Assembly (NCBI GenBank): GCA_963664115.2
Contig: CAXWPJ010000012.1
Span: 160,001 to 224,000 of the forward strand
Length of the DNA: 64,000 nt
Reading direction: 5' to 3'
DNA from: Terriglobia bacterium
Lineage (GTDB): Bacteria > Acidobacteriota > Terriglobia > 20CM-2-55-15
Shown: piece by piece, positions 1,199 to 20,965 of the stretch
How the letters are laid out: each line of letters starts with the position of its first letter
Numbering within the stretch: the stretch's first letter is position 1
Notes under the pieces: generated by a model
Seen by the model: only the letters and a program-made list of their open reading frames with translations
What the model was told of the DNA's origin: nothing
Database searches by the model: none
Made by a program: the position numbers and the translations under genes

Positions 1199-1222
1199 TC
1201 TAGGGGCGTCCTTTCATACTGC
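1199..1222 (-). mobile_element. Terminal fragment of a second IS110/IS1111 copy, interrupted by IS1380
   Basis: 1198-1239 is identical to 9133-9174, including subterminal IR CCTTTCATA, GAT core and flank TTAACAGGACTTGA. Confidence 0.85.
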
Positions 1223-1243
1223 GATTTAACAGGACTTGAGAAT
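1223..1243 (+). repeat. Right half of recurring palindromic site (GAT-TTAACAGGACT-TGAGAAT)
   Basis: Matches right halves at 1910, 6365 and 9161; continuation TGAGAATCATTTTC shared with 6376-6389. Confidence 0.75.
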
Positions 1244-1258: not shown

Positions 1259-1657
1259 TTAGGGCACCGGCACCCGTTCAACCGCCAAAGTAAGACGACC
1301 AACAGCACTGACGACTTCCACCGTGCTTCCTCTGGGCACGGGCCCTGTTGGGGCCGTCGCACGCCACAGCTCGCCGCGCACGCGGACGTAACCCTTTGGC
1401 GTGAGGTCGGTGGTGACGACTCCACGGAGGCCCACCATACGCTCAACTCCCGTCCGTGGATCTTCTTCGTATGACTGTCGGAGGAACGGATAGAGAGCAA
1501 GGTCTTTCACAACCCAGCAACCGAGCAGCGTGCCGGCGGCCCAGGCGGGCATTTCCACTCGACGCCACAGCAAAAGCAGCACGCCTACCAGCCCGAGCCA
1601 GCCCGGAATCTGAATGACGATGTATTTCAGAAACGTCCGAGTTGGCGGCCAGTACAT
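1259..1657 (-). CDS. Short NfeD-like membrane protein (TM segments + OB fold) ending in kinase-type tail ERVPVP
   Basis: Hydrophobic N-half; G..GVV..DL.P.GYVRVRGELWRA motif; 1262-1279 identical to kinase tail 9187-9204. Confidence 0.8.
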   Translation of the reverse strand: MYWPPTRTFLKYIVIQIPGWLGLVGVLLLLWRRVEMPAWAAGTLLGCWVVKDLALYPFLRQSYEEDPRTGVERMVGLRGVVTTDLTPKGYVRVRGELWRATAPTGPVPRGSTVEVVSAVGRLTLAVERVPVP

Positions 1658-1892
1658 GACGCCACTATCTCATAGGACGGCACTGAACCGACTCTTTCAA
1701 TCTGGCTTTGAAAATCTCGATAAAGAAACATGAAAGCAAGAGGTCGCGCGACGGCCTGCGGCCGCGACGATTCGTCCTCGGCAACGCCGAATGGTAGAGC
1801 TATTCACTTCCGCAGGATAGGTAAACCCTTGGCGACTTATCGTTAGTAATCCGGCGTTATTTCAGTTCCTAGGCACTTCTCCCCGAAGTTCA

Positions 1893-1920
1893 ACGTCCGA
1901 GAAGATGATTTGTCAGGACT
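1893..1920 (+). repeat. Intact recurring 11-6-11 palindromic site
   Basis: ACGTCCGAGAA-GATGAT-TTGTCAGGACT followed by TGA; arms are imperfect inverted repeats. Confidence 0.8.
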
Positions 1921-1932
1921 TGACCTCCAAAA

Positions 1933-2020
1933 TCAGGGAACTGGCACCCTCTCCTTCAGTTCTTCAAACCAATTCAGGACGATGTTGATTCCGGGGGCGG
2001 GCGGCCTCGCCAGTACCGGT
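1933..2020 (-). pseudogene. C-terminal remnant of a Ser/Thr kinase-beta-propeller gene
   Basis: Minus strand reads TGTGEAARPR (1-nt shift) INIVLNWFEELKERVPVP*. Confidence 0.8.
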
Positions 2021-2085
2021 CTTCCGTCTACCTGGAAATCCTGATTCGGACAAGGGCGGTTTGTCCGCGTCTTTCCATTCCAGTG

Positions 2086-3072
2086 TCAAAATACGGCGAT
2101 GGGGTTCAATGGTGAACCGGTTCCCCCGCGGAACGGGAGCGGTGCGGCCATCAGCAAAAACTCCCATCGATTTCGCTCGGCTGCTGCGTCGCCGAGCGCC
2201 TCCAGATCACAGTTGTCGAACATGTGGATGCCCAGATATAGCAGCGCAAAGTCGTGAACGGCTCCGGGCAGGTTCGACGGCGCAACATACGTTGGATGAT
2301 CGCTTCCCAATAACGCAACATCTCGCTCCTTCAACCACGGAATTACGGACGGGTGGAGACCCGCCGATCGGCCACCCTCGGCTCGGCCGCGAAGCCAAGG
2401 TCCTTCGGCCTCACGTCGAGCCCACACACCGGTACGAATGAACAGCGCGTCACCGGAGGAGACGCGCACGCCGGTCTGCTCTTCCCAGGCTTCCAGATCT
2501 TCCACGTAGATTGGAGTACCCGGCTCCAGATACGGAACGCCCTTGACCCTCGGAATGTCTATCAGGACGCCACGGGTCAGGATCCCGTTCTTGAGGTTGT
2601 GGATCGAGTTCTGCTCGTGTCCAGTTTCGAGGACGGTGTCCGCGTCAGGAGTGTACCCGTTGTAGAAAGTCCCGTTCTCGTTCACATGCGCCAGGGCGTC
2701 GAGGTGCGTGTGCGCGATGCCATGGTAACTGACCCCAAACCGATCTGCGCTGATCCGGAGCATCTCGTGTTCATACGGATTGGGATTGTCGATGGCCTGA
2801 ACGGTATCCGCATCACCAGCCAGGGAAACGGAAAATCCTTCTTCAACCAGGGCCACCGCCTCCAGCCGCTTCTCTGGCGTGATCAGGTTCAGGGCTCCGA
2901 TCTCATCGTCCACTCCCCAACGCCCCCAGTTCGACAACTCCGTCTTCCACTGTTCGTACTGGGCTGTGGTCACATCCCTGTCGCCCTCCTGAAGTGGTTC
3001 GAGGGCGGGTCGAGACAACGCGATAGTCGCGCTCATCGCTACTATGAAAAACCCGGCGAGCAATTTTTTCAT
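2086..3072 (-). CDS. Secreted cyclase / kynurenine-formamidase-like family protein
   Basis: Signal peptide MKKLLAGFF; SNWGRWG.DDEIGALNLITP; HTHLDALAH; GGTGSPLNPIA; GGAGG upstream of ATG 3072. Confidence 0.88.
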   Translation of the reverse strand: MKKLLAGFFIVAMSATIALSRPALEPLQEGDRDVTTAQYEQWKTELSNWGRWGVDDEIGALNLITPEKRLEAVALVEEGFSVSLAGDADTVQAIDNPNPYEHEMLRISADRFGVSYHGIAHTHLDALAHVNENGTFYNGYTPDADTVLETGHEQNSIHNLKNGILTRGVLIDIPRVKGVPYLEPGTPIYVEDLEAWEEQTGVRVSSGDALFIRTGVWARREAEGPWLRGRAEGGRSAGLHPSVIPWLKERDVALLGSDHPTYVAPSNLPGAVHDFALLYLGIHMFDNCDLEALGDAAAERNRWEFLLMAAPLPFRGGTGSPLNPIAVF

Positions 3073-3086
3073 GGATCCTCCGCGTT

Positions 3087-3137
3087 TTGGTCGGTGATTC
3101 GATATGGGCTGAGTTCTGTACCTGAACTGAGTGCCAC
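3087..3137 (-). pseudogene. N-terminal remnant of a Ser/Thr kinase gene
   Basis: GTG start reads VALSSGTELSPYRITDQ; 60-nt upstream region is colinear with that of the clear kinase stub at 14452. Confidence 0.65.
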
Positions 3138-3206
3138 AAAACACGCTGTTTGTTTTTTCGAAAATCTCGGTAAATTTAATCACAGGAGGGAATTGGGGAC
3201 AAAGAG

Positions 3207-3246
3207 AATCTCAAGTCCCCAAAAACGTTAGATTCTTATCGGAAGT
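3207..3246 (-). repeat. Recurring site variant, inverted, with 11-nt spacer
   Basis: Minus strand ACTTCCGATAA-GAATCTAACGT-TTTTGGGGACT-TGAGATT. Confidence 0.55.
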
Positions 3247-3558
3247 AACCCGGTGAGAGCAGCGCAGGACAAGTGGTGATGTGTGGCCGGGTTACTTTCG
3301 ATGAGGGCGTTTGAAGAAAGCTGCCCACAGGTCAGGCGTCTACGTAGTTTGACAGCGGTTTCGGGTATCGACAACGTGAAGACAGGCCAAGTGTAAACGA
3401 TATTGTAGGACACCGTGAAATGCCCTGTTTAGAGCAAGTGTCACATTGACGGTTAGGCGACAATACAGGACTTGGACAATCGGCGAGTTTTCATGCCGTC
3501 ATTCTGCTGCGTGCAGAGTCAACCTGACGTTGCCGTTTCAAAGGTCGTCGATAAGATG

Positions 3559-4362
3559 CTACCTGGCGCAGCGGAAGCCGATGTTATGGTGACCGGAGTC
3601 GAACTCACGCGAAAGATTCCGGCCGCGCTCGGTCGACCGGATCTGCCGCGCCGGGGTGTCCTGGCCGCCGCCGCGGGTTCCCCGCACCGGTCCCGGCTCG
3701 AGGCTCTCGCGGCCGTCCGAGGCGTCATAGGGGTAAGGCGCGTAGGCGCTGCTGACCCACTCCCAGACGTTGCCGGCCATGTCCAGGACGCCGTATGGGC
3801 TGGCGCCGTCCGGAAAGCGCCCCACCTGGGCGGTCTCCCTCCAGCCTCCGTCGAACTGCGCTCGCGTCCGGTCGGGAGCCTGACTGCCCCAGGGATACAT
3901 CCGGCCGTCCCTGCCGCGTGCGGCCTTCTCCCATTCCGCCTCCGTGGGAAGGCGCTTGTTGGCCCAGGCGCAGTAGTCTCGGGCCCCGGCCCATGAGACC
4001 TCCAGTACCGGATGGTCTTCGAAACCCGGCTCCACAACCCACGAGTTGCCGCTCCGATCGATGCGCGCATCGGAGTCGTCGTCCTCGTAATAGGTTTCCC
4101 GCCGAGGACCTACCGGTCCCACGGCTTCCAGAAACCTGGCGAACTGGGCCTTCGTTACGGGAGTCCGGTCGATCTCGAAAGTGGCCAGCTCGACAGTATG
4201 CGCGGGTCGCTCTTCGGCCGGACCGGTGTTCGTCCCCATGATGAAAGGCCCGGCCGGAATTGTGACCATTTCAGTCGTCGACTGGCTCTGGGCTTCGCAT
4301 AAGCAACCTGCGATTAGAACGATTGAAGATATCGCTCCAAGCGTATTGAGACTTCTGAACAT
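3559..4362 (-). CDS. Formylglycine-generating enzyme family (FGE-sulfatase/SUMF1 domain) secreted protein
   Basis: IPAGPFIMG, KRLPTEAEWEKAARG, DMAGNVWEW, IGFRCAR; alternative start 4404. Confidence 0.88.
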   Translation of the reverse strand: MFRSLNTLGAISSIVLIAGCLCEAQSQSTTEMVTIPAGPFIMGTNTGPAEERPAHTVELATFEIDRTPVTKAQFARFLEAVGPVGPRRETYYEDDDSDARIDRSGNSWVVEPGFEDHPVLEVSWAGARDYCAWANKRLPTEAEWEKAARGRDGRMYPWGSQAPDRTRAQFDGGWRETAQVGRFPDGASPYGVLDMAGNVWEWVSSAYAPYPYDASDGRESLEPGPVRGTRGGGQDTPARQIRSTERGRNLSREFDSGHHNIGFRCAR

Positions 4363-4881
4363 TGGAAACCTCTTGATTGGCTGGACTGGTTGATGCTGCC
4401 ACATGGCCCCGATTCAATGAGACTACAGGCAGGATTTCAGGTCAATCAAAGAATCACATGGAAGCATAGGCGACTTCACATTCTTGTGGAATTTCTACAG
4501 TCCGATTCAGGCTCACTCGGAGAAGGCTTGTGGGCTTAGTGAAAGGTGTTCGGACAAGCCAGTTCAGAAACCCTCTACGGGCAGGAGGCGCCGCAGCTCT
4601 TCGTCCAGACCGAATCCAGATCGACCGGGGCTATTGTTTTTCCTATGCCCTCTCGGTTTCAACCGGATAAAGTATGTGGCGATGATTTCGATCCGGTTTG
4701 GGCCGTTCTAGGGCCCGAACGGATTGCTTTCTACTCTTGGCCGACTATCGGAAACGGGCGAGACGCGCACGCCGCGGCTCGCGAGGCCAGAGTAGGGCTT
4801 TGGAGGGCCGCGTAGTGCCCGCGGCGGTTCGGGGCGAAGCCCCGTGTAGTTTATTAAGTTCGGCTCACGAGCGAGGTTTGC

Positions 4882-6087
4882 ATGAGAATCAAACGTTCCA
4901 TTCGGTGCGCTGCGGCGTTGCTGCTCGGCATTGTCGCGCTCAGCCACGCTCGGCAGCAACCGCCTATCGGCGTACCGGTACCGCCGTTGGGTGCGGGACC
5001 ATGGGTGTTCGATACGGGCGAGCAGCACAAGATCCGCGTCAGCGTCGTGACCAAGGGGCTCTCACATCCATGGGCCATCGCCTTCATGCCCGGTGACGAG
5101 ATGCTGATCACCGAGCGGGACGGTCGCCTGCGCGTCGTTCGAGCCGGAGTGCTCGACCCACAGGCCATCTCCGGCTTGCCCCAGGTCCGGACCGACGGCA
5201 ACGGGGGTCTCATGGATATTGCCCTCCATCCCCGGTTTGCCGAGAATCGCCTGGTCTACCTCACGTACACCAAACCGGTCAGAAGCGGCATGGGTGCTCC
5301 GGCGCTGGCGCGGGGCCGGCTCGAGGGCGACGAACTCGTCGATGTCCGAGACCTTCTCGTCACTGAGGCGCACGAGGGCAACTCGGGTCTCAACGGCCGC
5401 GTCGTCTTCGGAAGTGACGGCAAGGTCTACATGTCCACAGGCGGCAGGTCCCAAGACGACATTGAGAACCTCGCGCAAGATCCCATGAGCTTGCGCGGCA
5501 AGATCCTGCGCCTTAACGACGATGGCTCCGTACCGGCAGACAACCCGTTCGTGGGCCACGCGGGCTATCGGCCGGAAATTTACAGCCTGGGGCATCGAAA
5601 TACGCTGGGCCTCATCGTCCACCCCGAGACCGGGATGCTCTGGCAACACGAAAACGGCCCCCTCGGCGGCGACGAGATCAACATCATCTTGCCGGGGCGC
5701 GATTACGGATGGCCGCTTCTGAGCTTCGGACGCGATTATTCAGGCCCGCGCATTTCCGAACATCCGACCCGCGAGGGATTAGAGTCGCCGCTCGTCGTGT
5801 GGCTGCCCAGCATCGCGGTCGCCGGCATGGCCGTATACACCGGCGACCAGTTTCCGGCGTGGAGAGGCAACGTGTTCGTCGGTGCGATGCGCGAGGGCCG
5901 CATCCCGGGCACGGGCCACCTGCAGCGCATCGTGTTCAACGACAGGACAGAAGAGCTGCGACGCGAGTCGATGTTGAGGGAGCTCAGGCAACGCATCCGG
6001 GAAGTGCGCGAAGGGCCCGACGGGTTCCTGTACTTGCTCACGGACGAAGACGAAGGCGCGCTCCTGCGTATCGAGCCGGCCCCGTGA
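4882..6087 (+). CDS. PQQ-dependent glucose/sorbosone dehydrogenase family protein
   Basis: Signal peptide; GLSHPWAIAF, GKILRLNDDGS.P.DNPF, EIYSLGHRN, GGDEINII, RIREVREGPDG. Confidence 0.9.
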   Translation: MRIKRSIRCAAALLLGIVALSHARQQPPIGVPVPPLGAGPWVFDTGEQHKIRVSVVTKGLSHPWAIAFMPGDEMLITERDGRLRVVRAGVLDPQAISGLPQVRTDGNGGLMDIALHPRFAENRLVYLTYTKPVRSGMGAPALARGRLEGDELVDVRDLLVTEAHEGNSGLNGRVVFGSDGKVYMSTGGRSQDDIENLAQDPMSLRGKILRLNDDGSVPADNPFVGHAGYRPEIYSLGHRNTLGLIVHPETGMLWQHENGPLGGDEINIILPGRDYGWPLLSFGRDYSGPRISEHPTREGLESPLVVWLPSIAVAGMAVYTGDQFPAWRGNVFVGAMREGRIPGTGHLQRIVFNDRTEELRRESMLRELRQRIREVREGPDGFLYLLTDEDEGALLRIEPAP

Positions 6088-6288
6088 GCGTCCCGGACGG
6101 CCGTCTCACGGGAAGTGGGCGGGTTTGCCGTCACCCATCGTCCTTCGATCACACCCGTAAATAAAACTACATAAGGGACTTAGCGTCAATCTGCAAGGCA
6201 CATCCCTGTCACCCCCTAACCGGAATAGTGGCTTGTACTCAAGGACCCATTCACATTTGGGAAACCTGAAATGTTCCTGGAAACGATT

Positions 6289-6316
6289 ACTCCCGAAAAA
6301 CGCCGTTGTCGGAAGC
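6289..6316. repeat. 11-6-11 palindromic site variant
   Basis: ACTCCCGAAAA-ACGCCG-TTGTCGGAAGC; reverse complement of right arm GCTTCCGACAA resembles ACTTCCGACAA at 16445. Confidence 0.55.
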
Positions 6317-6340
6317 TGAGAAACCCCAGTAATTTGCCCA

Positions 6341-6382
6341 ATTCTCAAGTGACGCGAAGATGATTTCTCAGGACCTGAGAAT
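6341..6382 (+). repeat. Recurring site with extended arms (42 bp)
   Basis: ATTCTCA-AGTGACGCGAA-GATGAT-TTCTCAGGACC-TGAGAAT. Confidence 0.75.
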
Positions 6383-6388
6383 CATTTT

Positions 6389-6534
6389 CGACTGGCCAGA
6401 CACAAACTTAGAGCAGTTCATTGCCAGATGTTGCGGACACGTTCTTTAGCGTCGAGGGAAGCAGTCTTGCCAGCTTGATCTATCTGAATCCACACGCCCT
6501 CAGATCGGACCGGCGATGCTAAGTTGACAGTGCC
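6389..6534 (+). mobile_element. IS6-family 3' remnant (transposase tail + terminal IR)
   Basis: Reads RLARHKLRAVHCQMLRTRS, similar to the C-terminus of the IS6 transposase at 18704-19405; ends AAGTTGACAGTGCC. Confidence 0.7.
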
Positions 6535-6545
6535 TTCCTGACATC

Positions 6546-6980
6546 CTATGGCTGGCGCTGGGCAGCTACGAGTTCCAGGATGGCGATGGCGCCGCGAGCA
6601 GCGAGTTGAAGCGACTCGAGGTCCCCCGCTTCAACACCGTTGACAGCGATGTCGTTGGCTGCCTGGACAAGGATCGCGATCCCTCGGTCAGCATCGCCCA
6701 TGTCGTTGAGAATTCCATTTCCCTCCTGCGCGGCACATGGGTAGCCCGCACTGACGTCGAAATTCGACCCGTTCGGACCCTCGATGCAGTTCACCGCGTG
6801 GTGGAGATGCCTCATCGCACCCTCAACTGCCTCCTGGTCGGCCGACAAGCCTGCGTGCTGAATGGCCGTCGCGATCTGGCTCGCCGCCTTGCCCTGGTCT
6901 TGTTCTGCTGCCGCCATGGGCGCAAGGGCGACCATCACTACAACCATCATTATCACTATGTGTCTGACTGATTTAATCAT
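6546..6980 (-). CDS. Hypothetical secreted helical protein
   Basis: Signal peptide, GGAGG upstream, HLHHAVNCIEGPNG motif with a second Cys. Confidence 0.7.
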   Translation of the reverse strand: MIKSVRHIVIMMVVVMVALAPMAAAEQDQGKAASQIATAIQHAGLSADQEAVEGAMRHLHHAVNCIEGPNGSNFDVSAGYPCAAQEGNGILNDMGDADRGIAILVQAANDIAVNGVEAGDLESLQLAARGAIAILELVAAQRQP

Positions 6981-7268
6981 TTGAGGCCCTCCAGCCTGTG
7001 ATTGAAACGCCCCGGATAGAAAGAATAAGAGGCCCTTTCCTGCTAGAAATGGGGTGAGTCTGTGGCAATTCTTTCGCTCCAGCAAGGGAAATGCAAGGAA
7101 AATACGGTCCGCAGCACGAACTGAAGAACCAAGCATCGGTTGAGGTAACGAAAAGTGATGTCGATGGTGGTCTCCTCAGGGCTGGGAGGCGCCGCGCTGT
7201 GGCACCTCGTTGAGTGACCTAACCCACAAGAATTGGACCGAGAACAGTCCAATCACAAGGAGAGAGAA

Positions 7269-7556
7269 GTGAAGAAATTTGTGCTGCTCCATTACGGATT
7301 CGAGAAGCCCACCCCAGAGATCATGAAGGGATGGGAAACCTGGTTCGAGTCAATCGCCGACAGGACGGTTGATAACGGTGGTTTCAGCGGCGGGCGAGAG
7401 ATCTCCGCCTCTGGGACAAAGGACCTCCCATGGGGAATGGAGTCCATCACTGGCTACACGATTATCCAAGCCGAGAGCCTTGACGAGGCAGAGAAGATCG
7501 CTCAAGACAATCCCTATATCGCGAGCATCCGAGTCTACGAGGTCAGGGGGATGTAG
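7269..7556 (+). CDS. YciI/DGPF-like small protein
   Basis: KKFVLLHYGFE..., ITGYTIIQAESLDEAEKIA..NP....IRVYE; AGGAG upstream of GTG. Confidence 0.75.
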   Translation: MKKFVLLHYGFEKPTPEIMKGWETWFESIADRTVDNGGFSGGREISASGTKDLPWGMESITGYTIIQAESLDEAEKIAQDNPYIASIRVYEVRGM

Positions 7557-7595
7557 CGTGCCTGACTCACAAGGAGGCACCAACCCACTGGCGGG

Positions 7596-7619
7596 ATTCT
7601 CAACGTCCGAGAAGATGAT
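7596..7619 (+). repeat. Left half of recurring site, split by IS1111
   Basis: ATTCTCA-ACGTCCGAGAA-GATGAT; joined to 9161 onward it rebuilds a close copy of 1893-1990. Confidence 0.85.
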
Positions 7620-7799
7620 CTATGAAAGGGGATGTCAAGAGAAACAGCTCCCCGATGGCCGGCCAGACGGACACTTTTGTCGTGACAGCCAGCCCCTCTA
7701 CCGTTATGTGAAGCCCTGGTTCCGGCAATCCGCAGCGAAATCGTACATCTTTAAGACGGTCGATTCAGAAACTGAACAGCATATGGGACGGCATGTGCC

Positions 7800-7985
7800 G
7801 ACCATGGATCTATCTGAGCCTCGAAGGCTATCGCTGTTTCAGGTCGTGCGAGGGGGGATAGAGATTTAAAAGTGTCCTCTGGACGTATCCAGGGACCACA
7901 TCTTGTGCAGATCCTCACCCTCGATCCTCAGTTGTTCCGACTCCGTCTAACGACTCAGTACGGCTCTACCGGTCACGGATCGAAA
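7800..7985 (-). ncRNA. Putative bridge/seek RNA of the IS1111 element (boundaries approximate)
   Basis: Hairpin flanked by target-matching segments (7863-7906) and a hairpin flanked by donor-junction-matching segments (7807-7837). Confidence 0.7.
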
Positions 7986-7989
7986 CGGC

Positions 7990-9054
7990 TTATGTTGTCA
8001 TCCAGCTCAGTTTCTTTGGATCGAACGATTCTCCTTTCTTCCAAAGCGTCAGCACCAGTGCGGCGATCTTACGGGCCAGAGTGACCCGCGCCATTTCCTC
8101 CCGCATCCCACGCATCTGGAGACTCTCCAGATAAATCCGATACGGCTCGCTTTGTTTTCCCGATGCCGCGGCTGAGAAGAACACCGACTTCAATCGCCGG
8201 TTGCAGTTCGCATTCAATCCGCGTGTGGCCACCGGTTTCCTCCGTCGCACCACACGTCCACTCTGCATCTCATACTCCGCGCTCATGTGGGTCACCACAC
8301 CCAGGCCACTGTAGCTCCAGAACTGCGGTGTCGTGCGGAATCGGTACGGCGTGTCCACGATGGCGACGATCTGTGCCGCCCGAACCGGTCCCAGTTGTGG
8401 AATGGTCTCGAGCAGTTTCACCGCCTCATGGTGCCGGCCCTCCACTCGCACCGCTTTTCTGGATTGTTTCCGCAGCAACTGGACCTGGTCCAGTTCCGCA
8501 TACAACCATCGGGCGCGCTGCCTCATCCCCGGCTCGGTCAGCTTCTCCAACCACTGTTCGCGCTGACTCGGCCGATAGACTCCGTCCTTCGGTGTCGGGA
8601 TCCCCCGTCCCCGGTATATCGCTTTGATCCGCGACATCACCCGTTGCGTGTCCAACTGGAACGTGTCATAGGCCTGCACCAGTTGCTTCAATTCTCGCGT
8701 CGCTTCATGGCCGTGATACACCGAGCGCAACAGTCCCACCCGCAACAGCTCGGCCAGCTTCCGCGCATCCGGCTTATCCCCCTTCGACCCTTCTTGCATC
8801 CACTTGTTCTGTCGCGGATCGCACACCACCACCTCGCTCACCCACGGCCGGATCACTTCCGATAACCAGCCCGCTTGCGTGGTCTCCTCCAACCCCACGT
8901 GCATCGGCCCACTCAATCCCTCCAGCAGCCGTGTGATACTCCCCGCCTCGGTTTCCACGATCGTTTCAAACACCAGTTTGCCGCTCCCGTCTCTCACCGC
9001 AACCACCGTCGTTGCCTGGTGCACATCCATACCCATATACTTGTCTTGTTTCAT
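7990..9054 (-). CDS. IS110-family DEDD recombinase/transposase
   Basis: YMGMDVH, VGLEE, KGDKPDARKLA, IPQLGP..A, SYSGL. Confidence 0.92.
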   Translation of the reverse strand: MKQDKYMGMDVHQATTVVAVRDGSGKLVFETIVETEAGSITRLLEGLSGPMHVGLEETTQAGWLSEVIRPWVSEVVVCDPRQNKWMQEGSKGDKPDARKLAELLRVGLLRSVYHGHEATRELKQLVQAYDTFQLDTQRVMSRIKAIYRGRGIPTPKDGVYRPSQREQWLEKLTEPGMRQRARWLYAELDQVQLLRKQSRKAVRVEGRHHEAVKLLETIPQLGPVRAAQIVAIVDTPYRFRTTPQFWSYSGLGVVTHMSAEYEMQSGRVVRRRKPVATRGLNANCNRRLKSVFFSAAASGKQSEPYRIYLESLQMRGMREEMARVTLARKIAALVLTLWKKGESFDPKKLSWMTT

Positions 9055-9160
9055 CTCGAACGCTCCTTTTCTGGGATCAACGCTGTATACGTTGATCAGG
9101 TTGTTGAGTGAGTCTTCTCTCAACAACCCCCAGTCTAGGGGCGTCCTTTCATACTGCGAT

Positions 9161-9174
9161 TTAACAGGACTTGA
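9161..9174 (+). repeat. Right half of recurring site, split by IS1111
   Basis: TTAACAGGACT-TGA, then a kinase tail at the same spacing as 1910-1935. Confidence 0.85.
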
Positions 9175-9183
9175 CCTCGTAAA

Positions 9184-9270
9184 TCAGGGCACCGGCACCC
9201 GTTCTTTCAGTTCTTCAAACCAGTTGAGGACGATGTTGATTCTTGGGCGCTCGGTTTCTTCCAAGTCGGC
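9184..9270 (-). pseudogene. C-terminal remnant of a Ser/Thr kinase-beta-propeller gene
   Basis: Minus strand reads ADLEETERPRINIVLNWFEELKERVPVP*. Confidence 0.8.
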
Positions 9271-9471
9271 CCGCTACTCGGGAGTTGGCACGACGATTCA
9301 GTAAACATTACGGCGTTGGTGGGAAGTAATAGGCTCGATGTCTTGAACGTCGACTACGCCACAATGAATCGCTTGCAGTTGCCGGACTAACGGGCGAGAC
9401 TAAAAACACACGAGCGTCGGCAGACAACCTGGCGTTCTTGCCTGCTTAACAAATCATCGGAGGTAAGTATC

Positions 9472-9954
9472 ATGCGCGGAGCAATGCTGTTTGCGGCCGG
9501 ACTCTTCGTTGGGTTGGCCGTAAGTGTGGGGATGGCGCAAAACGCCAACAGTAATGTCGTGATGATGAATCACGTGGGCATCAACGTGCCGGACATCCCG
9601 GATGCGATGACATACTACACCGAGACAATGGGCTACCGGGAAGCGTTCCGTCTCAACGACGACAACGGGCAGCCGAGGCTGGTCTACATGCACATCAGCG
9701 AAAACACGTTCCTTGAGCTCGGGCAGGCGAACGCGCAACGGCCTGCAGGTTTCAGCCATTATGGGCTGCACGTCGAGAACGTGGCAGACGCCGTCGCACG
9801 GTTCAGAAGGGACGGCGCAACTGTCAGTGATACCCGCACCAGCGATACCAAAGCGATCCTCGCCAACATCACTGATCCGTACATGGGCCGCATCGAATTG
9901 GCCGAACTCCCTCCGGAGTCCCTGCATTACAAGGCCATTCAGAGCTGGAATTGA
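9472..9954 (+). CDS. Secreted VOC/glyoxalase family protein
   Basis: Signal peptide; NHVGINV.D, FLEL, HYGLHVENV, DPYMGRIEL. Confidence 0.85.
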   Translation: MRGAMLFAAGLFVGLAVSVGMAQNANSNVVMMNHVGINVPDIPDAMTYYTETMGYREAFRLNDDNGQPRLVYMHISENTFLELGQANAQRPAGFSHYGLHVENVADAVARFRRDGATVSDTRTSDTKAILANITDPYMGRIELAELPPESLHYKAIQSWN

Positions 9955-9968
9955 GAAGGAGCATAGAC

Positions 9969-11081
9969 ATGAAAGTTTCAGGTTTCGTGAGGTTCTCGTC
10001 GATGGTGGTGATCGCTGCCGTCGGGATTGCCCTGCTGGCAACGAGTGTTCAAACACAGCAGCGGGCAGGCACGGTTGAGACGGACAGAGTTCAACCCGTC
10101 AACAGCGGCGCCAATCCTTATCGCGTCTTCCGGGACTGGGCACAGCTCAATTTAGAGGCGAGACCGTGGGGCGGCTCCAACGGCGTCGCCATCGACCCCG
10201 ATGGCCGGTCCGTGTGGGCCGTCGACCGATGCTCACCCGGGACGACTCCGGGCTGTGTCGACAGCCCAGGGAACCCGGTCCACCATTTCGATGAGTCTGG
10301 AAATGAGATCCTAAGCTTTGGCAGCGGGATGTTCGTCTGGCCGCACGGCATCCATGTCGATCGAGACGGAAATGTGTGGGTTACCGATGCACGAGCCGAG
10401 AGCAACAAGGGAAGCGTCGTGGTCAAGTTCAGTCCCGAAGGCAGAGTCCTCATGACGCTTGGGACGCCGGGTGTGAGCGGAAACCCTCCCGAAGCTCTGA
10501 CTGACCCGACCAGCGTCGTGACCGACCCGGGAAATGGTGACGTGTACGTGGCGGAGAGCCATACGAACGTAACCGATCCCAATCTGGTCGGCCGCATCTC
10601 CGTCTTCGACAGAGACGGGAACTTCCTCAGAGTGATCGGCAAGACCGGAACGGGGCCGGGAGAGTTCCGGACGCCGCATGCGCTCGCGTTCGATTCCCAG
10701 GGCCGGCTCATCGTCGCCGATCGCCACAACCATCGCATCCAGATCCTGACGAAGGACGGTAGGTTCATCCGTGAATACGCCGACTTCGGGCGCGTCAGCG
10801 GGCTGGCCATCGACAGCAACGACGTCATTTACGCGGCCGACTCCGAGTCGAACGAAAGGGTTCACCCAGGCTGGAGGAGGGGAATCCGGATCGGCAGCCT
10901 CCGAGACGGGGAGGTGACCATGTTCATTCCGGCACACCCGACGGATTCTCCGGACGGTGCGATGGGCGAAGGCATCGCGATCGACCCCGAGGGCAATATC
11001 TACACGGCGGAAGCACGATTGAGCGACACGCCGGAAGCACGAGTGAGGGGCGTGACGAAGTACGTCAAGAACGAGAATTGA
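9969..11081 (+). CDS. Secreted NHL-repeat beta-propeller (peptidylglycine amidating lyase-like)
   Basis: WPHGIHVDRDGNVWVTD, GEFRTPHALAFDSQGRLIVADR.NHRIQI. Confidence 0.85.
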   Translation: MKVSGFVRFSSMVVIAAVGIALLATSVQTQQRAGTVETDRVQPVNSGANPYRVFRDWAQLNLEARPWGGSNGVAIDPDGRSVWAVDRCSPGTTPGCVDSPGNPVHHFDESGNEILSFGSGMFVWPHGIHVDRDGNVWVTDARAESNKGSVVVKFSPEGRVLMTLGTPGVSGNPPEALTDPTSVVTDPGNGDVYVAESHTNVTDPNLVGRISVFDRDGNFLRVIGKTGTGPGEFRTPHALAFDSQGRLIVADRHNHRIQILTKDGRFIREYADFGRVSGLAIDSNDVIYAADSESNERVHPGWRRGIRIGSLRDGEVTMFIPAHPTDSPDGAMGEGIAIDPEGNIYTAEARLSDTPEARVRGVTKYVKNEN

Positions 11082-11227
11082 AGCGCGTCAATCATCGCGC
11101 TTCGCTGATCTGAACCGGAGAAGCCCCGCTTCGATCTGCCTGCACAAGGAGTTGCGGTCAATCAGAAGGTCCAGTCCCTGAGATACCGCGGACACGAAAA
11201 AGTGGAATGCCCTAACATGGAGCCCTT

Positions 11228-11251
11228 CAGGCGCGATCCACTTTGGAGCAT
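11228..11251 (-). pseudogene. Very short kinase-like N-terminal stub (MLQSGSRL)
   Basis: Kinase-type start; upstream region homologous to 4463-4530 (shared AGCATAGGCGACT). Confidence 0.4.
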
Positions 11252-11344
11252 AGGCGACTATACGTCCGTGTGGATTGCCTCATCTTCGAATCTGGATACT
11301 TGAGAGTAGTTTAGTAGGCTGTGGGTAGCGAGACTTGATGATCG

Positions 11345-11445
11345 CTACGGGACCGGCACCCGTTCCTTCAGTTCTTCAAACCAGTTCAGGACGATGTTGA
11401 TTTGGGGTCATGCGACCTCGCCGCTATCGGCCTGGTCGGCGGGCC
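11345..11445 (-). pseudogene. C-terminal remnant of a Ser/Thr kinase-beta-propeller gene
   Basis: Minus strand reads PADQADSGEVA*PQINIVLNWFEELKERVPVP*; GACTTGA lies just downstream. Confidence 0.8.
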
Positions 11446-11567
11446 GAAACGGGTTGAGACTCGACACCGCCTCGGTTCACCGCCTCGAATCTACACTGGG
11501 GATGACTCGACGGACTCGGCCTACTTCGCCACAGATCCCAGGAGGGCGACGTCACGGGGCGCACTCA

Positions 11568-11887
11568 AGTTAAATGACCCCCGGCAAAGCCGGGGGCTTA
11601 GTTTTGTTAGCCCCTCAAAAGGGCCGGTCAAGAGCCGCCTGAAGGCGGCGAATTCGCCCACGGTATGTTCAACTGCTCCACAATTCTTCGTCCGTCGGTA
11701 CTTCGGTACGGACACCGCGTGACACTAGCAATCCCATGTCGTGTGCAATAGGCTTTGGCAGTCTTTCGTTACGTCCTCCTTGTTCGAAAGTTGGCGCTTC
11801 CAAGGAGGAGTTCCTTATTTACTGCCGCTTTCGGTCAAACCTCTGCGAGTCGCCCCGGCAGAGCCGGGGCTTTACCTGTTGGAATTA
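11568..11887 (-). mobile_element. Internally deleted IS200/IS605-family element (tnpA pseudogene)
   Basis: Terminal hairpins CCCCGGCAAAGCCGGGG and GCCCCGGCAGAGCCGGGGC; decayed TnpA start KDCQSLLHTTWDC*CHAVSVPKYRR. Confidence 0.75.
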
Positions 11888-11890
11888 GCC

Positions 11891-12760
11891 CTAGCTTCCA
11901 CTGCCATCCGTTGTGCTGCCACCACCAAGGTCACTCACAAAGGACTGGAGCATGGTGGTGAACTCCATGGGGAATATGAACTTGGTGGCGGCACCTTCTC
12001 CGAGTCGCTTCAGCGTCTCAAAGTATTGCAGGCTCATAGTTCGGGCGTCTGCGGTCCGGGCAACCGTGTTGATCTGAGTGAGGGCGTTGCTGAACCCTTC
12101 CGCGTTGAGAATAGCGGCCTGGCGAGTCCCCTCAGCACGGAGCATGGCGGCCTGCCGCTCACCCTCAGCTTTAAGGATGGCCGCCTGCTTTTCCCCCTCG
12201 GCTCGGTTTATTTGGGCCTGGCGTTGTCCTTCCGACTCTGTGATATCGGCCGTCTTGATGGCCTCCGCCGACTTCTCCCTCTCCATGGCGTTCTTCACCC
12301 CGTCGGGTGGGTCGATCTCGTTGATTGCGGCCCCGCGGACCTTGACCCCCCAGCGGCCCGTATTTTCGTCCAGCGCAATCTGGAGCTGACTTTGTATCTG
12401 CTCCCGTTCGCTTAGCGCCGCGGCCAGAGTTATATTGCCAATGATGGACCTGAGCTCTGCCACGGCCAGGTTCCGCACCGCCAGGCGGTGGTTCGCCACC
12501 TCGAGGACCGATTTCTCCGCTTGATCCGGTAGGACGCGGTAATAGAGTACAAAGTCCATGTCCACAACCACGTTGTCCTTGGTGATGTACTGCTGCGTTG
12601 GGACTCGCTCCGGCACCTCCCGGGTATCTACGACCCTACCGGAATGGAAGAAAGGTATGAGGAAATGAAACCCGGCGCCCTTGAGACTCCCCGTGTACTT
12701 TCCCAAGGAAAACACCACCATCTTCTCGTACTGTTTGACGATCACTATGCCTGTTGCCAT
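11891..12760 (-). CDS. SPFH/band-7 (slipin/QmcA-like) protein
   Basis: ITKDNVVV..D, LRSIIG..TL...LSERE, WGVKV, AEGEKQAAIL repeats. Confidence 0.9.
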   Translation of the reverse strand: MATGIVIVKQYEKMVVFSLGKYTGSLKGAGFHFLIPFFHSGRVVDTREVPERVPTQQYITKDNVVVDMDFVLYYRVLPDQAEKSVLEVANHRLAVRNLAVAELRSIIGNITLAAALSEREQIQSQLQIALDENTGRWGVKVRGAAINEIDPPDGVKNAMEREKSAEAIKTADITESEGQRQAQINRAEGEKQAAILKAEGERQAAMLRAEGTRQAAILNAEGFSNALTQINTVARTADARTMSLQYFETLKRLGEGAATKFIFPMEFTTMLQSFVSDLGGGSTTDGSGS

Positions 12761-12855
12761 GGTAGCCTCCTGAATGTCTTGTGCACTGGTAACCTAGTCA
12801 CTCCACTAGTCTTATAGTTACGCCGTACGCCTCTCCATACGGGTTCAACCCGAGA

Positions 12856-14235
12856 CTAGTGAGCTGATTCCAGAGGTTGATCACTCTGCTCTAGCCGGAT
12901 CACGGTGAGAATGATGCCGTTCACCTTCACCACCTCTACCTTTTCTCCAGAGCCTATCTGGTCGCTGCCCTGGGCCACTGCGGTCCAAAGTTGGTTTTCC
13001 AAGCGCACCGTACCCCGGGGTGCAAGATCAGTGGCAACCTCCGCCATTTGGCCCACCAAGCCAGCCACACCTGGATCGAGCGGCCCTCTTCGCGACCGTA
13101 CGATGGTGGTGATCACCCATCCTCCACCACCACTCAGCACCAGCGCCGTGGACACTAGGAACCACGGGCTCACACCTATACGCGGCATTGTGGGTGATGG
13201 CGCACCCGTATGGAAGAAAAGGAAAACCCCTCCCAAGATGAAGCTAACGATGGCCCCAACACCCAGGATACCAAAGCCCGCCACGTAGACCTCCAGCGCC
13301 GCTAGGACCACTGCCATGAGGATGAGCACCACACCCGCCCAGTTGACCGGCAGGTTCCCCAGGGTGACGTAGGAGAGAATCAAGAGGATGAGTCCAGTTA
13401 CTCCCGGCACGATCAAACCTGGATTCAGTAACTCCAAGAAAATGCCCAGACTGCCGAGAGACAGGAGCAAATAGGAAACGTTGGGATCGGAGAGGAAGCG
13501 CAGGAATCGCTCGACCAGGCTCATCTCCATGGTCTGCACCGCCACCCCTTGCGTTTCCAGTACCAGGCGTGGGCCACCAGGGGGCCGTACCGTGGCCTCC
13601 CGGCCGTGGAGCTGGGCCAGGAGGTCATCCAGATCACCAGCCAGAAAATCCACCATGCCGGACTCCACCGCCTCTTCGCCGGTGAAAGACAGTGCCTGAA
13701 GCACGGTGGCCTCCAGCTTCTCCTGATTCCGACCCCGTAGCTCGGCGATGGTCCTCATCTCGGCCGCGGCGTCGTTGGTGACCTTGGACCTGAGGGTCTC
13801 TGGAAGCTCCTCACCGTCACCGCTAACCGGGCTGGCAGCACCGACGTTGGTCCCTGGCGCCATCACAGCGAAAGTGGCGGCAGCAGTGATGAAGGTACCC
13901 GCCGAGGCAGCCCTCGCCCCACGAGGTGCCACGTACACCACCGACGGCAGCTCTGCGTTGAGCAAGTGTTGGGTAATCTTCCGCGTAGAGTCCAGAAGAC
14001 CACCAGGGGTATCCAAGTGAACTATGATCAGGCTGGCACCCTCGGCCTCGGCCCGCTCCACACCCCGGGCAATGAACCCCTCAGTAACGGGGCTGATGAT
14101 GCCATCCACTTCCAGGAGTAGGACGTGGCGCTGCTGCGCGTGGCCAAGATTCAACAATCCTCCGGCCATGGCCACAGCCGACAGCAACCCCACCAGCAGG
14201 TGAGGCTTACCCCTGATCCTTGCTCCACTCAGCAT
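12856..14235 (-). CDS. nfeD: Long NfeD membrane-bound serine protease (ClpP-like + TM + OB)
   Basis: LDTPGGLLDS, AASAGTFI, MAPGTNVGAASPV; adjacent to the SPFH gene. Confidence 0.9.
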   Translation of the reverse strand: MLSGARIRGKPHLLVGLLSAVAMAGGLLNLGHAQQRHVLLLEVDGIISPVTEGFIARGVERAEAEGASLIIVHLDTPGGLLDSTRKITQHLLNAELPSVVYVAPRGARAASAGTFITAAATFAVMAPGTNVGAASPVSGDGEELPETLRSKVTNDAAAEMRTIAELRGRNQEKLEATVLQALSFTGEEAVESGMVDFLAGDLDDLLAQLHGREATVRPPGGPRLVLETQGVAVQTMEMSLVERFLRFLSDPNVSYLLLSLGSLGIFLELLNPGLIVPGVTGLILLILSYVTLGNLPVNWAGVVLILMAVVLAALEVYVAGFGILGVGAIVSFILGGVFLFFHTGAPSPTMPRIGVSPWFLVSTALVLSGGGGWVITTIVRSRRGPLDPGVAGLVGQMAEVATDLAPRGTVRLENQLWTAVAQGSDQIGSGEKVEVVKVNGIILTVIRLEQSDQPLESAH

Positions 14236-14371
14236 GTTCCACGAATCCTGATCCTAGTAGCATCCCTCAACTCCGCCCCAGGCAATGCTCAATCTTGTGA
14301 AGCTCGTTTGAGTCGTTAGCGGCTGAGCGTTTACGACTGCTGGCCTTTGAGAGCTTTGAGTTTTTCCAGGG

Positions 14372-14452
14372 TGCGCGCCACACTTCACCCATTCCACCCT
14401 TACCTAAAAGCGTTGAGATCTCGTAATGACCGAGTTTGGTGCCAGATTCCAT
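14372..14452 (-). pseudogene. N-terminal remnant of a Ser/Thr kinase gene
   Basis: MESGTKLGHYEISTLLGKGGMGEVWRA (glycine-rich loop), then abrupt loss of similarity. Confidence 0.88.
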
Positions 14453-14527
14453 GTTCAAAGTGTGTCGCTGAAAAAACCGAGTAAATCTCGGTAAAAGATA
14501 CTAGAGGAGTGAGTTAGGCGCTATCAA

Positions 14528-14562
14528 ATTCTCAAGTCCCTGCAAATGACCTTGGCGGACAG
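14528..14562 (-). repeat. Recurring site, inverted orientation
   Basis: Minus strand CTGTCCGCCAA-GGTCAT-TTGCAGGGACT-TGAGAAT. Confidence 0.65.
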
Positions 14563-14885
14563 TCAGATAGCCGAGTCTTTCATCCAAATCCGTAAGGATC
14601 TCAATGGAACACAACTGGACCTGGCAGGAGTTGACTGTTCAAAACGAAGCAAACGAAGGTGACGAAGGGAGAGATCTGAGAGAATGAACTAGGAAAGGTG
14701 CAGAGGAAGAAATCAGTGGTCATCAGTCAGGAATTATCAGTCCGAAGGTGAGAAATCGTGTCGGCCGGATTTCTCTAAACCCATAACTATTAACTCTTAA
14801 CATTCCTTACCGCACCTGTTCTTTTAAGATCACAAGTGTCCCTGCCGCTGCAGGACCGCAACCCGTGCGGAACGGAAGTTCACGA

Positions 14886-16133
14886 ATGAGCGCCAAACGT
14901 GTTGTCATTGTCGGTGGTGGAGTGATTGGGACCGCCTGCGCTCATTACCTCAAGAATGCCGGCTTCGACATTACGATTATCGACAGCGGAAGCATCGGCG
15001 GCGGCTGTTCCCATGGCAATTGCGGATACGTCAGCCCCAGCCAAGTCCTTCCACTGACCGAGCCCGCTGCAGTCGGTAAAGCATTCAGGTCGCTTTTTAA
15101 AAAGAACGCACCGCTACGCATCAAACCCCGCTTCGATCCGCAGTTGTGGAGTTGGCTCATAAATTTCGCTCGACGCTGCAATACGCGCGATATGCTGCAA
15201 GCGGCCGAGGCACGTCACGCATTGCTGGCTTCCTCAAGAGAGCTTTACACCGAATTGTTTGAGACAGAAGATGTTCCATGCGAGTGGGAAGAACGCGGCC
15301 TATATTTAGTGTTCAAGACAGCCGCCGCGTTCGAGAAATATGCTGAAACAGACAGGTTGATTCGCGACAACTTCGGCATCGGGGCGACACGTTTCGGTGC
15401 GAGCGAAGTAGTGAAGCGTGAACCTGCCTTGTTGGATGATATCTCGGGCGCGTGGTACTACGAGGGCGACGCGCACCTACGTCCGGACCGGCTGTTGTCG
15501 TCCTGGCGAAAACTGCTTGAGTCGCGCGGGGTGGCGATCATCGAACAGTGTAAGTTCACACATTTCGTCCAGAGCGGTGACCAAGCCGTCGCAATCTCAA
15601 CATCAATGGATAAGCTGGAAGCTGATTGCTTCGTTGTCGCCACCGGTGCCTGGACGCCCCAGTTGAATTTTGAAATCGGCTGCCGGATTCCGGTTCAGCC
15701 TGGCAAAGGCTATTCCATCACGATGCCTCGCCCCGTGCTGTGTCCCGGGACTCCGCTCATTTTTTCTGAAGACAAAGTAGCTGTGACTCCGATGCAATCT
15801 GGATATCGGCTGGGTTCCACGATCGAGTTTGCAGGCTACGATACAACACTCAACCCGACGCGACTCGAGATGCTCAAAGAGTCCGCTAGACACTACCTCC
15901 GCGAACCGTACTCCGAGCCTGTGGAAGAAGAGTGGTACGGTTGGCGACCGATGACCTATGACGGCGTTCCCTTTATCGACCGCAGTCCACGCTTCTCCAA
16001 CGTCTTAATCGCCACCGGCCACAACATGCTCGGCCTCAGCATGGCCACTGCAACGGGCAAGCTGATCGCGGAATGGCTCAGCGACGAAACGCCTCACATT
16101 GATCCGAAGCCATATCGAATTCAGCGGATTTGA
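14886..16133 (+). CDS. FAD-dependent D-amino acid dehydrogenase (DadA-like)
   Basis: VVIVGGGVIG, CSHGNCG, PGKGYSIT, GWRPMTYDG.P, ATGHNMLGLS. Confidence 0.88.
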   Translation: MSAKRVVIVGGGVIGTACAHYLKNAGFDITIIDSGSIGGGCSHGNCGYVSPSQVLPLTEPAAVGKAFRSLFKKNAPLRIKPRFDPQLWSWLINFARRCNTRDMLQAAEARHALLASSRELYTELFETEDVPCEWEERGLYLVFKTAAAFEKYAETDRLIRDNFGIGATRFGASEVVKREPALLDDISGAWYYEGDAHLRPDRLLSSWRKLLESRGVAIIEQCKFTHFVQSGDQAVAISTSMDKLEADCFVVATGAWTPQLNFEIGCRIPVQPGKGYSITMPRPVLCPGTPLIFSEDKVAVTPMQSGYRLGSTIEFAGYDTTLNPTRLEMLKESARHYLREPYSEPVEEEWYGWRPMTYDGVPFIDRSPRFSNVLIATGHNMLGLSMATATGKLIAEWLSDETPHIDPKPYRIQRI

Positions 16134-16444
16134 GTTCGGTGTTCCGCACACTCCAGACGGTACTGTCAACTTGGGCTCGCTGAAGTTGTTACAGGTCGTT
16201 CAGTCAGAACTTCGGCGTGACGTTCCGTCTTCATTACCAATGAACTACGTCCGTTAGATCAGGTGCTGCGGCGATGAAACAAAGCAATGAAGCTGGCACC
16301 CGCAAACGTGACAGTTGCCCCGCATAACCTCACCACTCCACCAACTCCTTCTCCGTAAGCTCCTGGAAGCACCTCGGACACTTCGCAGCCGCTGACAGGA
16401 GGCCACGCCCAATTCTTTGAAGTTTTCAGGAATTACAGATGTCA

Positions 16445-16472
16445 ACTTCCGACAAGATGATTTATCAGACTA
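16445..16472 (+). repeat. Recurring site variant
   Basis: ACTTCCGACAA-GATGAT-TTATCAGACT, same GATGAT spacer. Confidence 0.7.
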
Positions 16473-16641
16473 ACGACAATAAGCCTCAGGCTTTCTAACG
16501 CAAGCTGTTTAGAGGCTCCCTGGGAGTTGTGCAATCTACCGATTAATGAGCGCTGATTTGAGGTCTATTTAGAAGCTGACGGTCGCTGTAAGCCTTTTGA
16601 AAGGATCTTGTGACGAGTACAACGTAAGCAGAAATGATGTC

Positions 16642-20889: not shown

Positions 20890-20892
20890 CAA

Positions 20893-20965
20893 TGGGACCG
20901 ACCGGACTTGAACCGATGACTTCCTGCGTGTGAAGCAGGCGCTCTTCCAACTGAGCTACGATCCC
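20893..20965 (-). tRNA. tRNA-Val (anticodon CAC)
   Basis: GGGATCGTAGCTCAGTTGGAAGAGCG-CCTGC-TTCACAC-GCAGG-AAGTC-ATCGG-TTCAAGT-CCGGT-CGGTCCCA cloverleaf. Confidence 0.95.

What the first reader, a model, noticed from the sequence alone, without database searches (positions are those of the whole stretch)
1893..16472. Recurring 11-6-11 palindromic sites delimit the modules (dif/pdif-like geometry, non-canonical arms)
Seen in sequence, plus orientation: ACGTCCGAGAA-GATGAT-TTGTCAGGACT (1893); the same site split by an IS (7603/9161); a right half (1226); AGTGACGCGAA-GATGAT-TTCTCAGGACC with outer arms ATTCTCA/TGAGAAT (6341); ACTTCCGACAA-GATGAT-TTATCAGACT (16445). Inverted copies occur at 14528 and 3207, and a variant at 6289. 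Plus copies sit just past kinase tails and inverted copies just upstream of kinase heads, so the GGACT-TGA arm faces the shell at both ends. Established: 11-6-11 is the XerC/D dif layout, Acinetobacter dif modules are bounded by inversely oriented pdif sites, and ACTTCCGA(C/T)AA resembles the B. subtilis dif left arm ACTTCCTAGAA. The canonical XerD arm TTATGT(T/A)AA is absent. Inference: a tyrosine recombinase shuffles these modules, and the shared GATGAT spacer would make the sites compatible.
Basis: partly seen in the sequence, partly recalled or inferred. Interest (0 to 1): 0.85.

Follow-up and report, generated by a model that had tools for sequence, protein, structure and literature searches.

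The report
Lox-like gene cassette arrays in Acidobacteria
About 190 copies of a short palindrome that closely resembles the lox sites used in genetic engineering border accessory-gene cassettes in this acidobacterial genome; cassettes have swapped neighbours exactly at these sites, likely through a Cre-like enzyme that has not been found.

Summary
The sites are real. They belong to a family of 190 in the genome (0 in shuffles), in 41 clusters. Conservation spans 34-40 bp (13-8-13), not 11-6-11. The arms match the VCre target VloxP at 22 of 26 positions, but the host's own single dif, found elsewhere, at only 12 of 26.

There are two spacer classes. A (GATGAT, 142 sites) follows kinase-gene tails and forms direct-repeat arrays. 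B (TGTCGT/GGTCGT) precedes a kinase promoter and head. The classes never cross (70/0/0/23).

Neighbours change at the site: 33 of 46 site pairs share only one flank, and 29 of 148 duplication ends fall at sites against 1.5 expected. Window modules recur at 94-98% identity, scattered, in sister species. Four IS types insert at the spacer.

Best reading: a cassette system recombined at lox-type sites. The enzyme is unidentified: no VCre-like gene is in this assembly, and only XerC/XerD are shared by all site-rich genomes, so host Xer remains a rival. Nine paper searches found no description. The scan noted this kind of system before in other genomes (e1-9892977, e1-6535848).

The parts
1198..1225 (.). 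Remnant end of the IS1111-type element (same 42-nt stretch as 9133-9174), cut off on the left next to a DDE_Tnp_1_4 transposase gene (3-1004)
1226..1242 (+). Right arm of an A site whose left half is lost
1259..1657 (-). Cargo: NfeD-like C-terminal protein; the module 1233-1886 recurs site-to-site at C2:317301-317954 (99.7%) with other neighbours
1887..1926 (+). Full A site (spacer GATGAT)
1933..1989 (-). Kinase tail stub (..INIVLNWFEELKERVPVP stop)
2086..3072 (-). Cargo: cyclase-family gene; 1890-3044 recurs in G002 (96%) behind an intact site with another left flank
3207..3246 (-). Degenerate inverted site: right arm only scores, left-arm-like 11-mer is out of register
3559..6087 (.). Cargo: FGE-sulfatase-domain gene (-) and glucose/sorbosone dehydrogenase gene (+)
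6283..6322 (-). Degenerate B-type site, 59 bp from the next A site (the back-to-back B/A pair seen genome-wide)
6342..6381 (+). Full A site
6382..7596 (.). Cargo module (137-aa unknown protein, YCII protein); 6360-7617 recurs spacer-to-spacer in G002 (97%), where both ends carry IS30-like insertions
7597..7619 (+). Left arm and spacer of an A site split by an IS
7620..9160 (-). IS1111-type IS110-family element (transposase 7990-9054); all 7 long copies in the genome start at an A-site spacer
9161..9177 (+). Right arm of the split A site; G002 has an intact site before the same module
9184..9273 (-). Kinase tail stub
9472..11081 (+). Cargo: glyoxalase-family and NHL-repeat genes
11340..11420 (-). 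Kinase tail stub without an intact site
11891..14235 (-). Cargo: NfeD and SPFH/band-7 gene pair (89% copy in G004)
14373..14528 (-). Kinase head stub (MESGTKLGHYEI..GKGGMGEVW) with its conserved ~75-bp promoter-like leader
14529..14568 (-). B-type site (spacer GGTCAT), inverted relative to the A sites
14865..16133 (+). Cargo: FAD-dependent oxidoreductase (DAO family)
16439..16478 (+). Degenerate A site, last of this array

Best explanation
The palindromes are a genome-wide family of 34-40-bp lox-type sites that bound accessory-gene cassettes, and they are likely cut and rejoined by a single Cre/VCre-type tyrosine recombinase supplied from outside this assembly (inferred; enzyme not found). Shown: two spacer classes; an ancestral unit B site-promoter-Ser/Thr kinase-PD40 gene-inverted A site; arrays of A sites in direct orientation around 1-2 genes; neighbours exchanged at the site; IS elements that home to the spacer. 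Inferred: both arms bind one protein (shared half-site TCAA-N-K-Y-C-Y-G-A-N-AA). Crossover needs matching spacers, so A x A reactions excise and insert circles and build direct-repeat arrays. A/B pairs would be heterospecific ends that block inversion and allow cassette exchange. Cargo cassettes would arise when most of a kinase cassette is lost or replaced, leaving the tail and head stubs. The enzyme would sit on a plasmid or phage-plasmid missed by binning, or be lost, which would explain why about 140 same-spacer sites persist.
For: Consensus arms match natural Vlox at 11/13 and 11/13 (14/17 and 14/17), including its one asymmetry; the arm-only matrix scores Vlox 41 bits, host dif -24, median site 50 (VloxP printed in PMC5964202 Table 1; natural copy beside VCre in L085). 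The outer TCAA/TTGA positions, outside an 11-bp Xer arm, are among the most conserved. Cre-clade genes of other Acidobacteriota have similar arms beside them (L126, L127, L143). Flank swaps: 33 of 46 pairs among 157 strong sites (pairs are not independent). Duplication ends at sites: 29 of 148 against 1.5 expected. Spacer class against right flank: A/tail 70, A/promoter 0, B/tail 0, B/promoter 23. Direct orientation 107 to 7. Window modules lie scattered in G001/G002/G004 at 89-98%; two begin at an intact G002 site with a different left flank. IS ends abutting a site arm: 7 of 8, 6 of 8, 16 of 20, 2 of 2.
Against: No VCre-like gene in G000, G001 or G004. The Cre-clade gene of G002/G003 has its own, different flanking sites and no cassette site within the ~20-40 kb read. 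XerC and XerD are the only tyrosine recombinases I found shared by G000-G003. The left arm also fits Terriglobia dif XerC arms, so part of the Vlox likeness is generic. The Vlox comparison was made after the fact against one recalled site. No circle or inversion junction was seen; the runs laid are contigs only. Linkage across the site did not place crossovers in the spacer. Many module ends are not at sites: 23 of 449 cross-species match ends were at a site in both genomes (sites cover ~2% of those loci).
Confidence: 0.5

Rival explanations
1. The sites are non-canonical Xer sites used by the host's XerC/XerD, as in Acinetobacter dif modules: XerC on the left arm, XerD weakly on the right, possibly with an activator, which would keep the arrays stable.
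For: XerC and XerD are intact and are the only shared tyrosine recombinases found. The left arm matches the host dif at 8/11 and the dif left arm of some other Terriglobia at 10/11. Inverted A/B pairs with unlike spacers recall C/D-D/C modules (PMC12907356, passages). TLC phage attP recombines through XerCD despite a non-canonical XerD arm when XafT is present (PMC9226527, passages). Related right arms occur in several genera of the family.
Against: The right arm matches the host XerD arm at 5/11 yet is tightly conserved to a different sequence, not degenerate. Conservation extends symmetrically beyond 11 bp. The XerD recognition-helix region is alike in site-rich and site-poor genomes. A sites are in direct, not alternating, orientation. 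The true dif is separate and single-copy in 20 of 61 genomes searched.
Confidence: 0.25
2. The enzyme is the arm-less tyrosine recombinase at C5:52192-53154, a Terriglobia family, acting on all arrays.
For: It lies between two inverted B sites, has its catalytic motifs, and is the best genome hit of a Cre-family profile. 7 of 37 family loci have a dif/lox-like palindrome within ~300 bp against 1 of 32 other recombinase genes.
Against: That contrast is p=0.06, and p=0.11 without G000; over whole loci the palindrome density is no higher (4.5 against 5.3 and 2.7 per 100 kb). It was not found in G002 (88 sites) or G003 (42 sites) and is broken in G001. It forms its own clade outside Cre/VCre. It occurs in many genomes in which the site was not found.
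Confidence: 0.1
3. The palindrome is a protein operator or boundary mark of the kinase gene family, and modules are reshuffled by ordinary homologous recombination and IS activity at these repeats (genome decay, no dedicated system).
For: Site plus tail gives about 100 bp of homology; most kinases are stubs; IS elements are abundant and in G002 define both ends of one shared module; each arm is itself a small palindrome; many kinases in G004 and G007 lack sites.
Against: The spacer sequence is conserved and class-specific. In 33 pairs similarity stops within 15 nt of the site, often with no shared tail. 82 of 152 A-class sites have no tail. A sites sit at gene 3' ends, an unusual operator position.
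Confidence: 0.1
4. The sites are REP-like or attC-like single-strand hairpins moved by a HUH (RAYT) transposase or the integron integrase.
For: The best-matching site folds into a bulged hairpin (z -5.7); back-to-back pairs at 58-59 or 148 bp occur; RAYT-like genes and an IntI exist; IS1111 elements are known to target attC and REP (PMC11187229, passages).
Against: The variable stem positions do not covary (52 of 125 paired, about 55 expected from the base counts). The 1887 site does not fold (z -0.5). RAYT-like genes are not flanked by site pairs. The IntI is far from any array and no attC-like motif was found beside it.
Confidence: 0.05

Closest known systems
VCre/VloxP (Vibrio plasmid p0908; Cre/loxP class; PMC3082901, PMC5964202)
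   Same: 13-8-13 geometry, 22 of 26 arm positions, the same single asymmetry between arms, asymmetric spacer.
   Different: About 190 chromosomal copies instead of one site per plasmid; two spacer classes; no cognate enzyme found in the genome; bounds gene cassettes rather than resolving plasmid dimers.
Acinetobacter pdif/dif modules and chromosomal dif-module islands (XerC/XerD; PMC12907356)
   Same: Short palindromic sites flank 1-2 accessory genes, form multi-module islands, are shared between species, and attract site-targeting IS.
   Different: No XerD-type arm; longer arms; mostly direct repeats with one spacer instead of alternating C/D and D/C sites; kinase-gene stubs at the ends; about 190 sites against about ten.
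Integron cassette arrays (IntI, attC, CALIN)
   Same: Direct-repeat sites between short gene cassettes, arrays without a neighbouring integrase, IS1111-type elements homing to the site.
   Different: 34-40-bp sequence-conserved site without attC R boxes or stem covariation; cargo in both orientations (54 to 31); the IntI present is unlinked.

Membership tests
Xer dif / pdif module | 28-bp 11-6-11 site with a XerC-type arm | tested here: met
   Left arm 8/11 to the host dif and 10/11 to dif of some other Terriglobia
Xer dif / pdif module | Conserved XerD arm like the host dif | tested here: not met
   5/11 to the host XerD arm; conserved to another sequence
Xer dif / pdif module | Sites alternate C/D and D/C around modules | tested here: not met
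   A-type neighbours 107 direct, 7 inverted; B sites are 27 of 190
Xer dif / pdif module | Recombined by host XerC and XerD | not testable with these tools
   Genes intact; needs a binding or recombination assay
Cre/lox-type system (VCre/VloxP) | 13-8-13 near-palindromic site with asymmetric spacer | tested here: met
   definition in PMC3082901 passages
Cre/lox-type system (VCre/VloxP) | Cre-clade recombinase gene close to its site | tested here: not met
   None in G000 (assembly 97% complete, plasmids may be missing); the G002/G003 gene has other sites
Cre/lox-type system (VCre/VloxP) | Recombination needs identical spacers | tested here: inconclusive
   A and B classes never cross-associate, which common descent could also give; linkage test not localising
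Integron / CALIN | attC sites with R boxes and conserved hairpin structure | tested here: not met
   AAC triplet not conserved, site under 57 bp, no stem covariation; attC limits recalled from general knowledge
Integron / CALIN | IntI integrase beside the array | tested here: not met
   IntI at C9:714593 is over 100 kb from any site hit
REP/REPIN with RAYT | RAYT gene flanked by inverted copies of the repeat | tested here: not met
   8 loci read: one site near the G000 gene, one 1.8 kb from a G003 gene, none elsewhere

The most novel reading that the evidence does not exclude
A natural Cre/lox-type gene-capture and shuffling system on a bacterial chromosome. A mobile kinase cassette bounded by heterospecific lox-like sites was domesticated into about 190 sites and half a megabase of interchangeable accessory-gene cassettes, traded between species. 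It would be a third class of cassette array beside integrons and dif modules, with an undescribed recombinase.
Probability: 0.45. Interest if true: 0.9.

Novelty: new variant of a known kind. Interest (0 to 1): 0.78.

Why it matters
Multi-site clusters span 562 kb, about 11% of this genome, and hold its accessory enzymes and secreted proteins. If a site-specific recombinase drives them, this is an unrecognised route of gene acquisition in uncultured Acidobacteriota, comparable in scale to a chromosomal super-integron but on double-stranded lox-type sites. It gives a direct test of how cassettes originate, here apparently from hollowed-out kinase genes. It also offers about 190 natural variants of one site, two natural heterospecific spacers and possibly a new recombinase for genome engineering.

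Tried and rejected
Host dif identity: rejected; a separate single dif lies at C2:108118-108145 and is conserved in relatives.

VCre-like enzyme in G000: none by phmmer, tblastn, two profiles or a motif scan. The Cre-clade gene of G002/G003 was set aside because it has its own sites; its arms still match ours at about 9 of 14 by eye, so it is not excluded.

C5-family link: weak. IS91-associated recombinases: their elements insert into sites and were not found in G003.

Tie of arrays to tRNA genes: 13 of 30 within 15 kb against 11.2 expected, p=0.3. Strand bias with GC skew: 64 of 91, clustered data, not pursued. Hairpin/REP/attC reading: rejected. Linkage test across the spacer: 0 of 64 pairs linked, but within-arm linkage was limited to near neighbours, so it localises nothing. 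Rfam: only the tRNA. Integrase_1 family search rang nowhere, controls included.

Site pattern: no exact match in viral contigs, none in plasmids by blastn, none within 2 mismatches in 400 other Acidobacteriota.

Public runs: all held as contigs; joints at sites had sides under 35 letters and show nothing about circles. Strain-level junctions in a second array remain unexamined.

Literature: nine searches found no description of this site family; subscription journals are mostly not searched. The one supplement searched (PMC10250229, 48,886 characters) gave only primer rows; larger target-site tables may not have been visible.
Full report
Observation. A matrix from five window sites found 207 genome hits above 20 bits against 3 and 0 in shuffled genomes. 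After refinement there are 190 distinct sites above 22 bits and none in two shuffles, in 41 clusters; 30 clusters hold two or more sites and span 562 kb. A few are double-counted in assembly overlaps. The consensus is TTCTCAACGTCCGAGAA-GATGAT-TTCTCAGGACTTGAGAA, and the 34-bp core from TCAA to TTGA carries most of the information. Record titles of relatives read 'Terriglobia bacterium' MAG.

Not the host dif. A canonical dif lies at C2:108118-108145 on a contig whose cumulative GC skew peaks near 80-100 kb. It is single-copy in 20 of 61 genomes searched. XerC and XerD pass their NCBIfam cut-offs. The site family matches this dif at 8/11 on the left and 5/11 on the right.

Lox-type geometry. I recalled VloxP as a look-alike and checked it in PMC5964202 Table 1 (passages) and in a natural copy beside a VCre gene. 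The arms agree at 11/13 and 11/13 and share the one asymmetry. The arm-only matrix scores Vlox 41 bits, the host dif -24, and the median site 50. PMC3082901 (passages) defines the 13-8-13 layout and notes the single mismatch. Caveat: VloxP arms are themselves XerC-arm-like, and the comparison is post hoc.

Two spacer classes and the kinase shell. 142 sites have GATGAT (A); 27 are B-like (TGTCGT/GGTCGT). The right arm of A is followed by the 3' end of a Ser/Thr kinase-PD40 gene in 70 of 152 A-class sites. That of B is followed by a conserved leader before the kinase start in 23 of 27. No A has the leader and no B the tail (kinase domains). Intact kinases in G001, G002 and G003 show B-leader-kinase-inverted A, with the previous A about 19 bp before B. 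In G000 most tails are stubs under 70 nt. A-type neighbours are direct in 107 of 114 cases, median spacing is 2.4 kb, and 43 of 61 short modules hold one or two called genes. Cargo in 150 scanned proteins (of 176 representatives from 14 fetched array regions) is accessory: hydrolases, glyoxalases, acetyltransferases, propeller proteins, DUF6152 and transposases.

Evidence of exchange at the site. Among 157 strong sites, 46 pairs share 150 nt or more of flank; 33 share one side only, 9 both, 4 are intermediate. The window's 1887 site shares its left flank with C2:317261 but not its right. Of 148 ends of low-copy duplications inside islands, 29 lie within 15 nt of a site, 1.5 expected. Window modules recur in G001, G002 and G004 at 89-98% identity but far apart. 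In G002 the cyclase and glyoxalase modules start at intact sites with other left flanks, and 6360-7617 matches spacer to spacer, although IS30-like insertions fix both ends there. Against a clean picture: only 23 of 449 cross-species match ends were at a site in both genomes, so many ends arise otherwise.

IS homing. Four element types insert at the spacer/right-arm junction: IS1111-type 7 of 8 left ends, a second IS110-family element 6 of 8, an IS30-like element 16 of 20, an IS91-recombinase element 2 of 2 (the IS30 label is my reading of HTH_38+rve). IS1111 elements that target attC and REP are described in PMC11187229 (passages), and IS1202-group targeting of Xer sites in 10.1101/2022.12.17.520857 (first quarter and passages).

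Distribution. With the strict pattern: G002 88, G003 42, G001 10, G004 0, sister genus 0-3, and 0 in the other 52 of 61 genomes. With the spacer free: G004 11 (6 with CCGGAT), G026 9, G007 3, G029 3, G017 1, and a few single variants in further genera. None in 400 other Acidobacteriota or viral contigs; 6 metagenome stretches.

The enzyme. G000 has 27 Pfam tyrosine-recombinase matches. VCre finds nothing in G000, G001 or G004 but hits a Cre-clade gene in G002 and G003, and no other of 35 family genomes convincingly. That gene is flanked by its own inverted lox-like sites, not ours. The C5 recombinase between two B sites is absent from G002/G003 by this query, and its link to such palindromes is weak. 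IntI and RAYT-like genes are unlinked. XerC/XerD are the only shared candidates found, their recognition region is unremarkable, and PMC9226527 (passages) shows XerCD can use non-canonical XerD arms with an activator. I put a dedicated Cre/VCre-type enzyme in trans at 0.5, host Xer at 0.25, the C5 family at 0.1, homology and decay at 0.1, hairpin mechanisms at 0.05; site-specific recombination of some tyrosine type is thus about 0.85.

Comparison and novelty. It works like Acinetobacter dif-module islands (PMC12907356, first sixth and passages) and integron arrays, but fails membership tests for both, and it lacks the linked enzyme that defines Cre/lox systems. Nine searches found no account of this family. 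Also seen as passages: PMC3025954, 10.1101/542381, PMC3553980; PMC10250229 as part 2 of 7 and one supplement search. Earlier scan notes describe the same kind of system in other genomes (e1-9892977, e1-6535848) and read a related stretch as decay (e1-776197); they are unchecked notes, were read after my analysis was largely done, and are not counted as support. Verdict: a real, large, apparently undescribed cassette system with lox-type sites and an unidentified recombinase; new variant of a known kind; interest 0.78.

Noticed in passing
L089:1350-2740 (G002), L088 (G003), L119, L120, L140, L141: A 327-aa Cre-clade recombinase gene flanked on both sides by its own inverted lox-like sites, in several unrelated Acidobacteriota: a self-contained mobile Cre-lox unit; at least 120 close relatives in the protein database.
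   Followed up: partly
L126, L127, L143: Cre-clade genes of other Acidobacteriota have near-perfect palindromes with dif-like arms within about 500 bp: candidate new recombinase/site pairs.
   Followed up: no
G000:C2:108118-111541 (L296): A second, degenerate dif copy with the same spacer 3.4 kb from the host dif, with a transposase and small ORFs between: possible remnant of an element integrated at dif.
   Followed up: partly
window 19630-20965: HTH gene and tyrosine integrase (19876-20886) ending next to tRNA-Val (20893-20965): a tRNA-anchored island end; the integrase start looks disrupted.
   Followed up: partly
G000:C2:256772, C2:757231, C12:544093; L310:4955: A second dif-like palindrome family with spacer GCCGAC about 85 bp upstream of some A sites; similar spacers occur beside C5-family recombinases in other genomes.
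   Followed up: partly
G000:C9:714593-715873: Integron integrase above the NCBIfam cut-off with no attC-like motif found in 18 kb by a simple pattern.
   Followed up: partly
L011, L016-L028: DUF6152 small secreted proteins are the commonest cargo, 11 of 150 scanned proteins; this may explain their repeated copies noted earlier in this genome.
   Followed up: no
G000:C2:1-14093, C5:1-11221, C6/C11: Long near-identical duplications (7-16 kb) between contigs or contig ends; assembly overlaps or recent array duplications.
   Followed up: no
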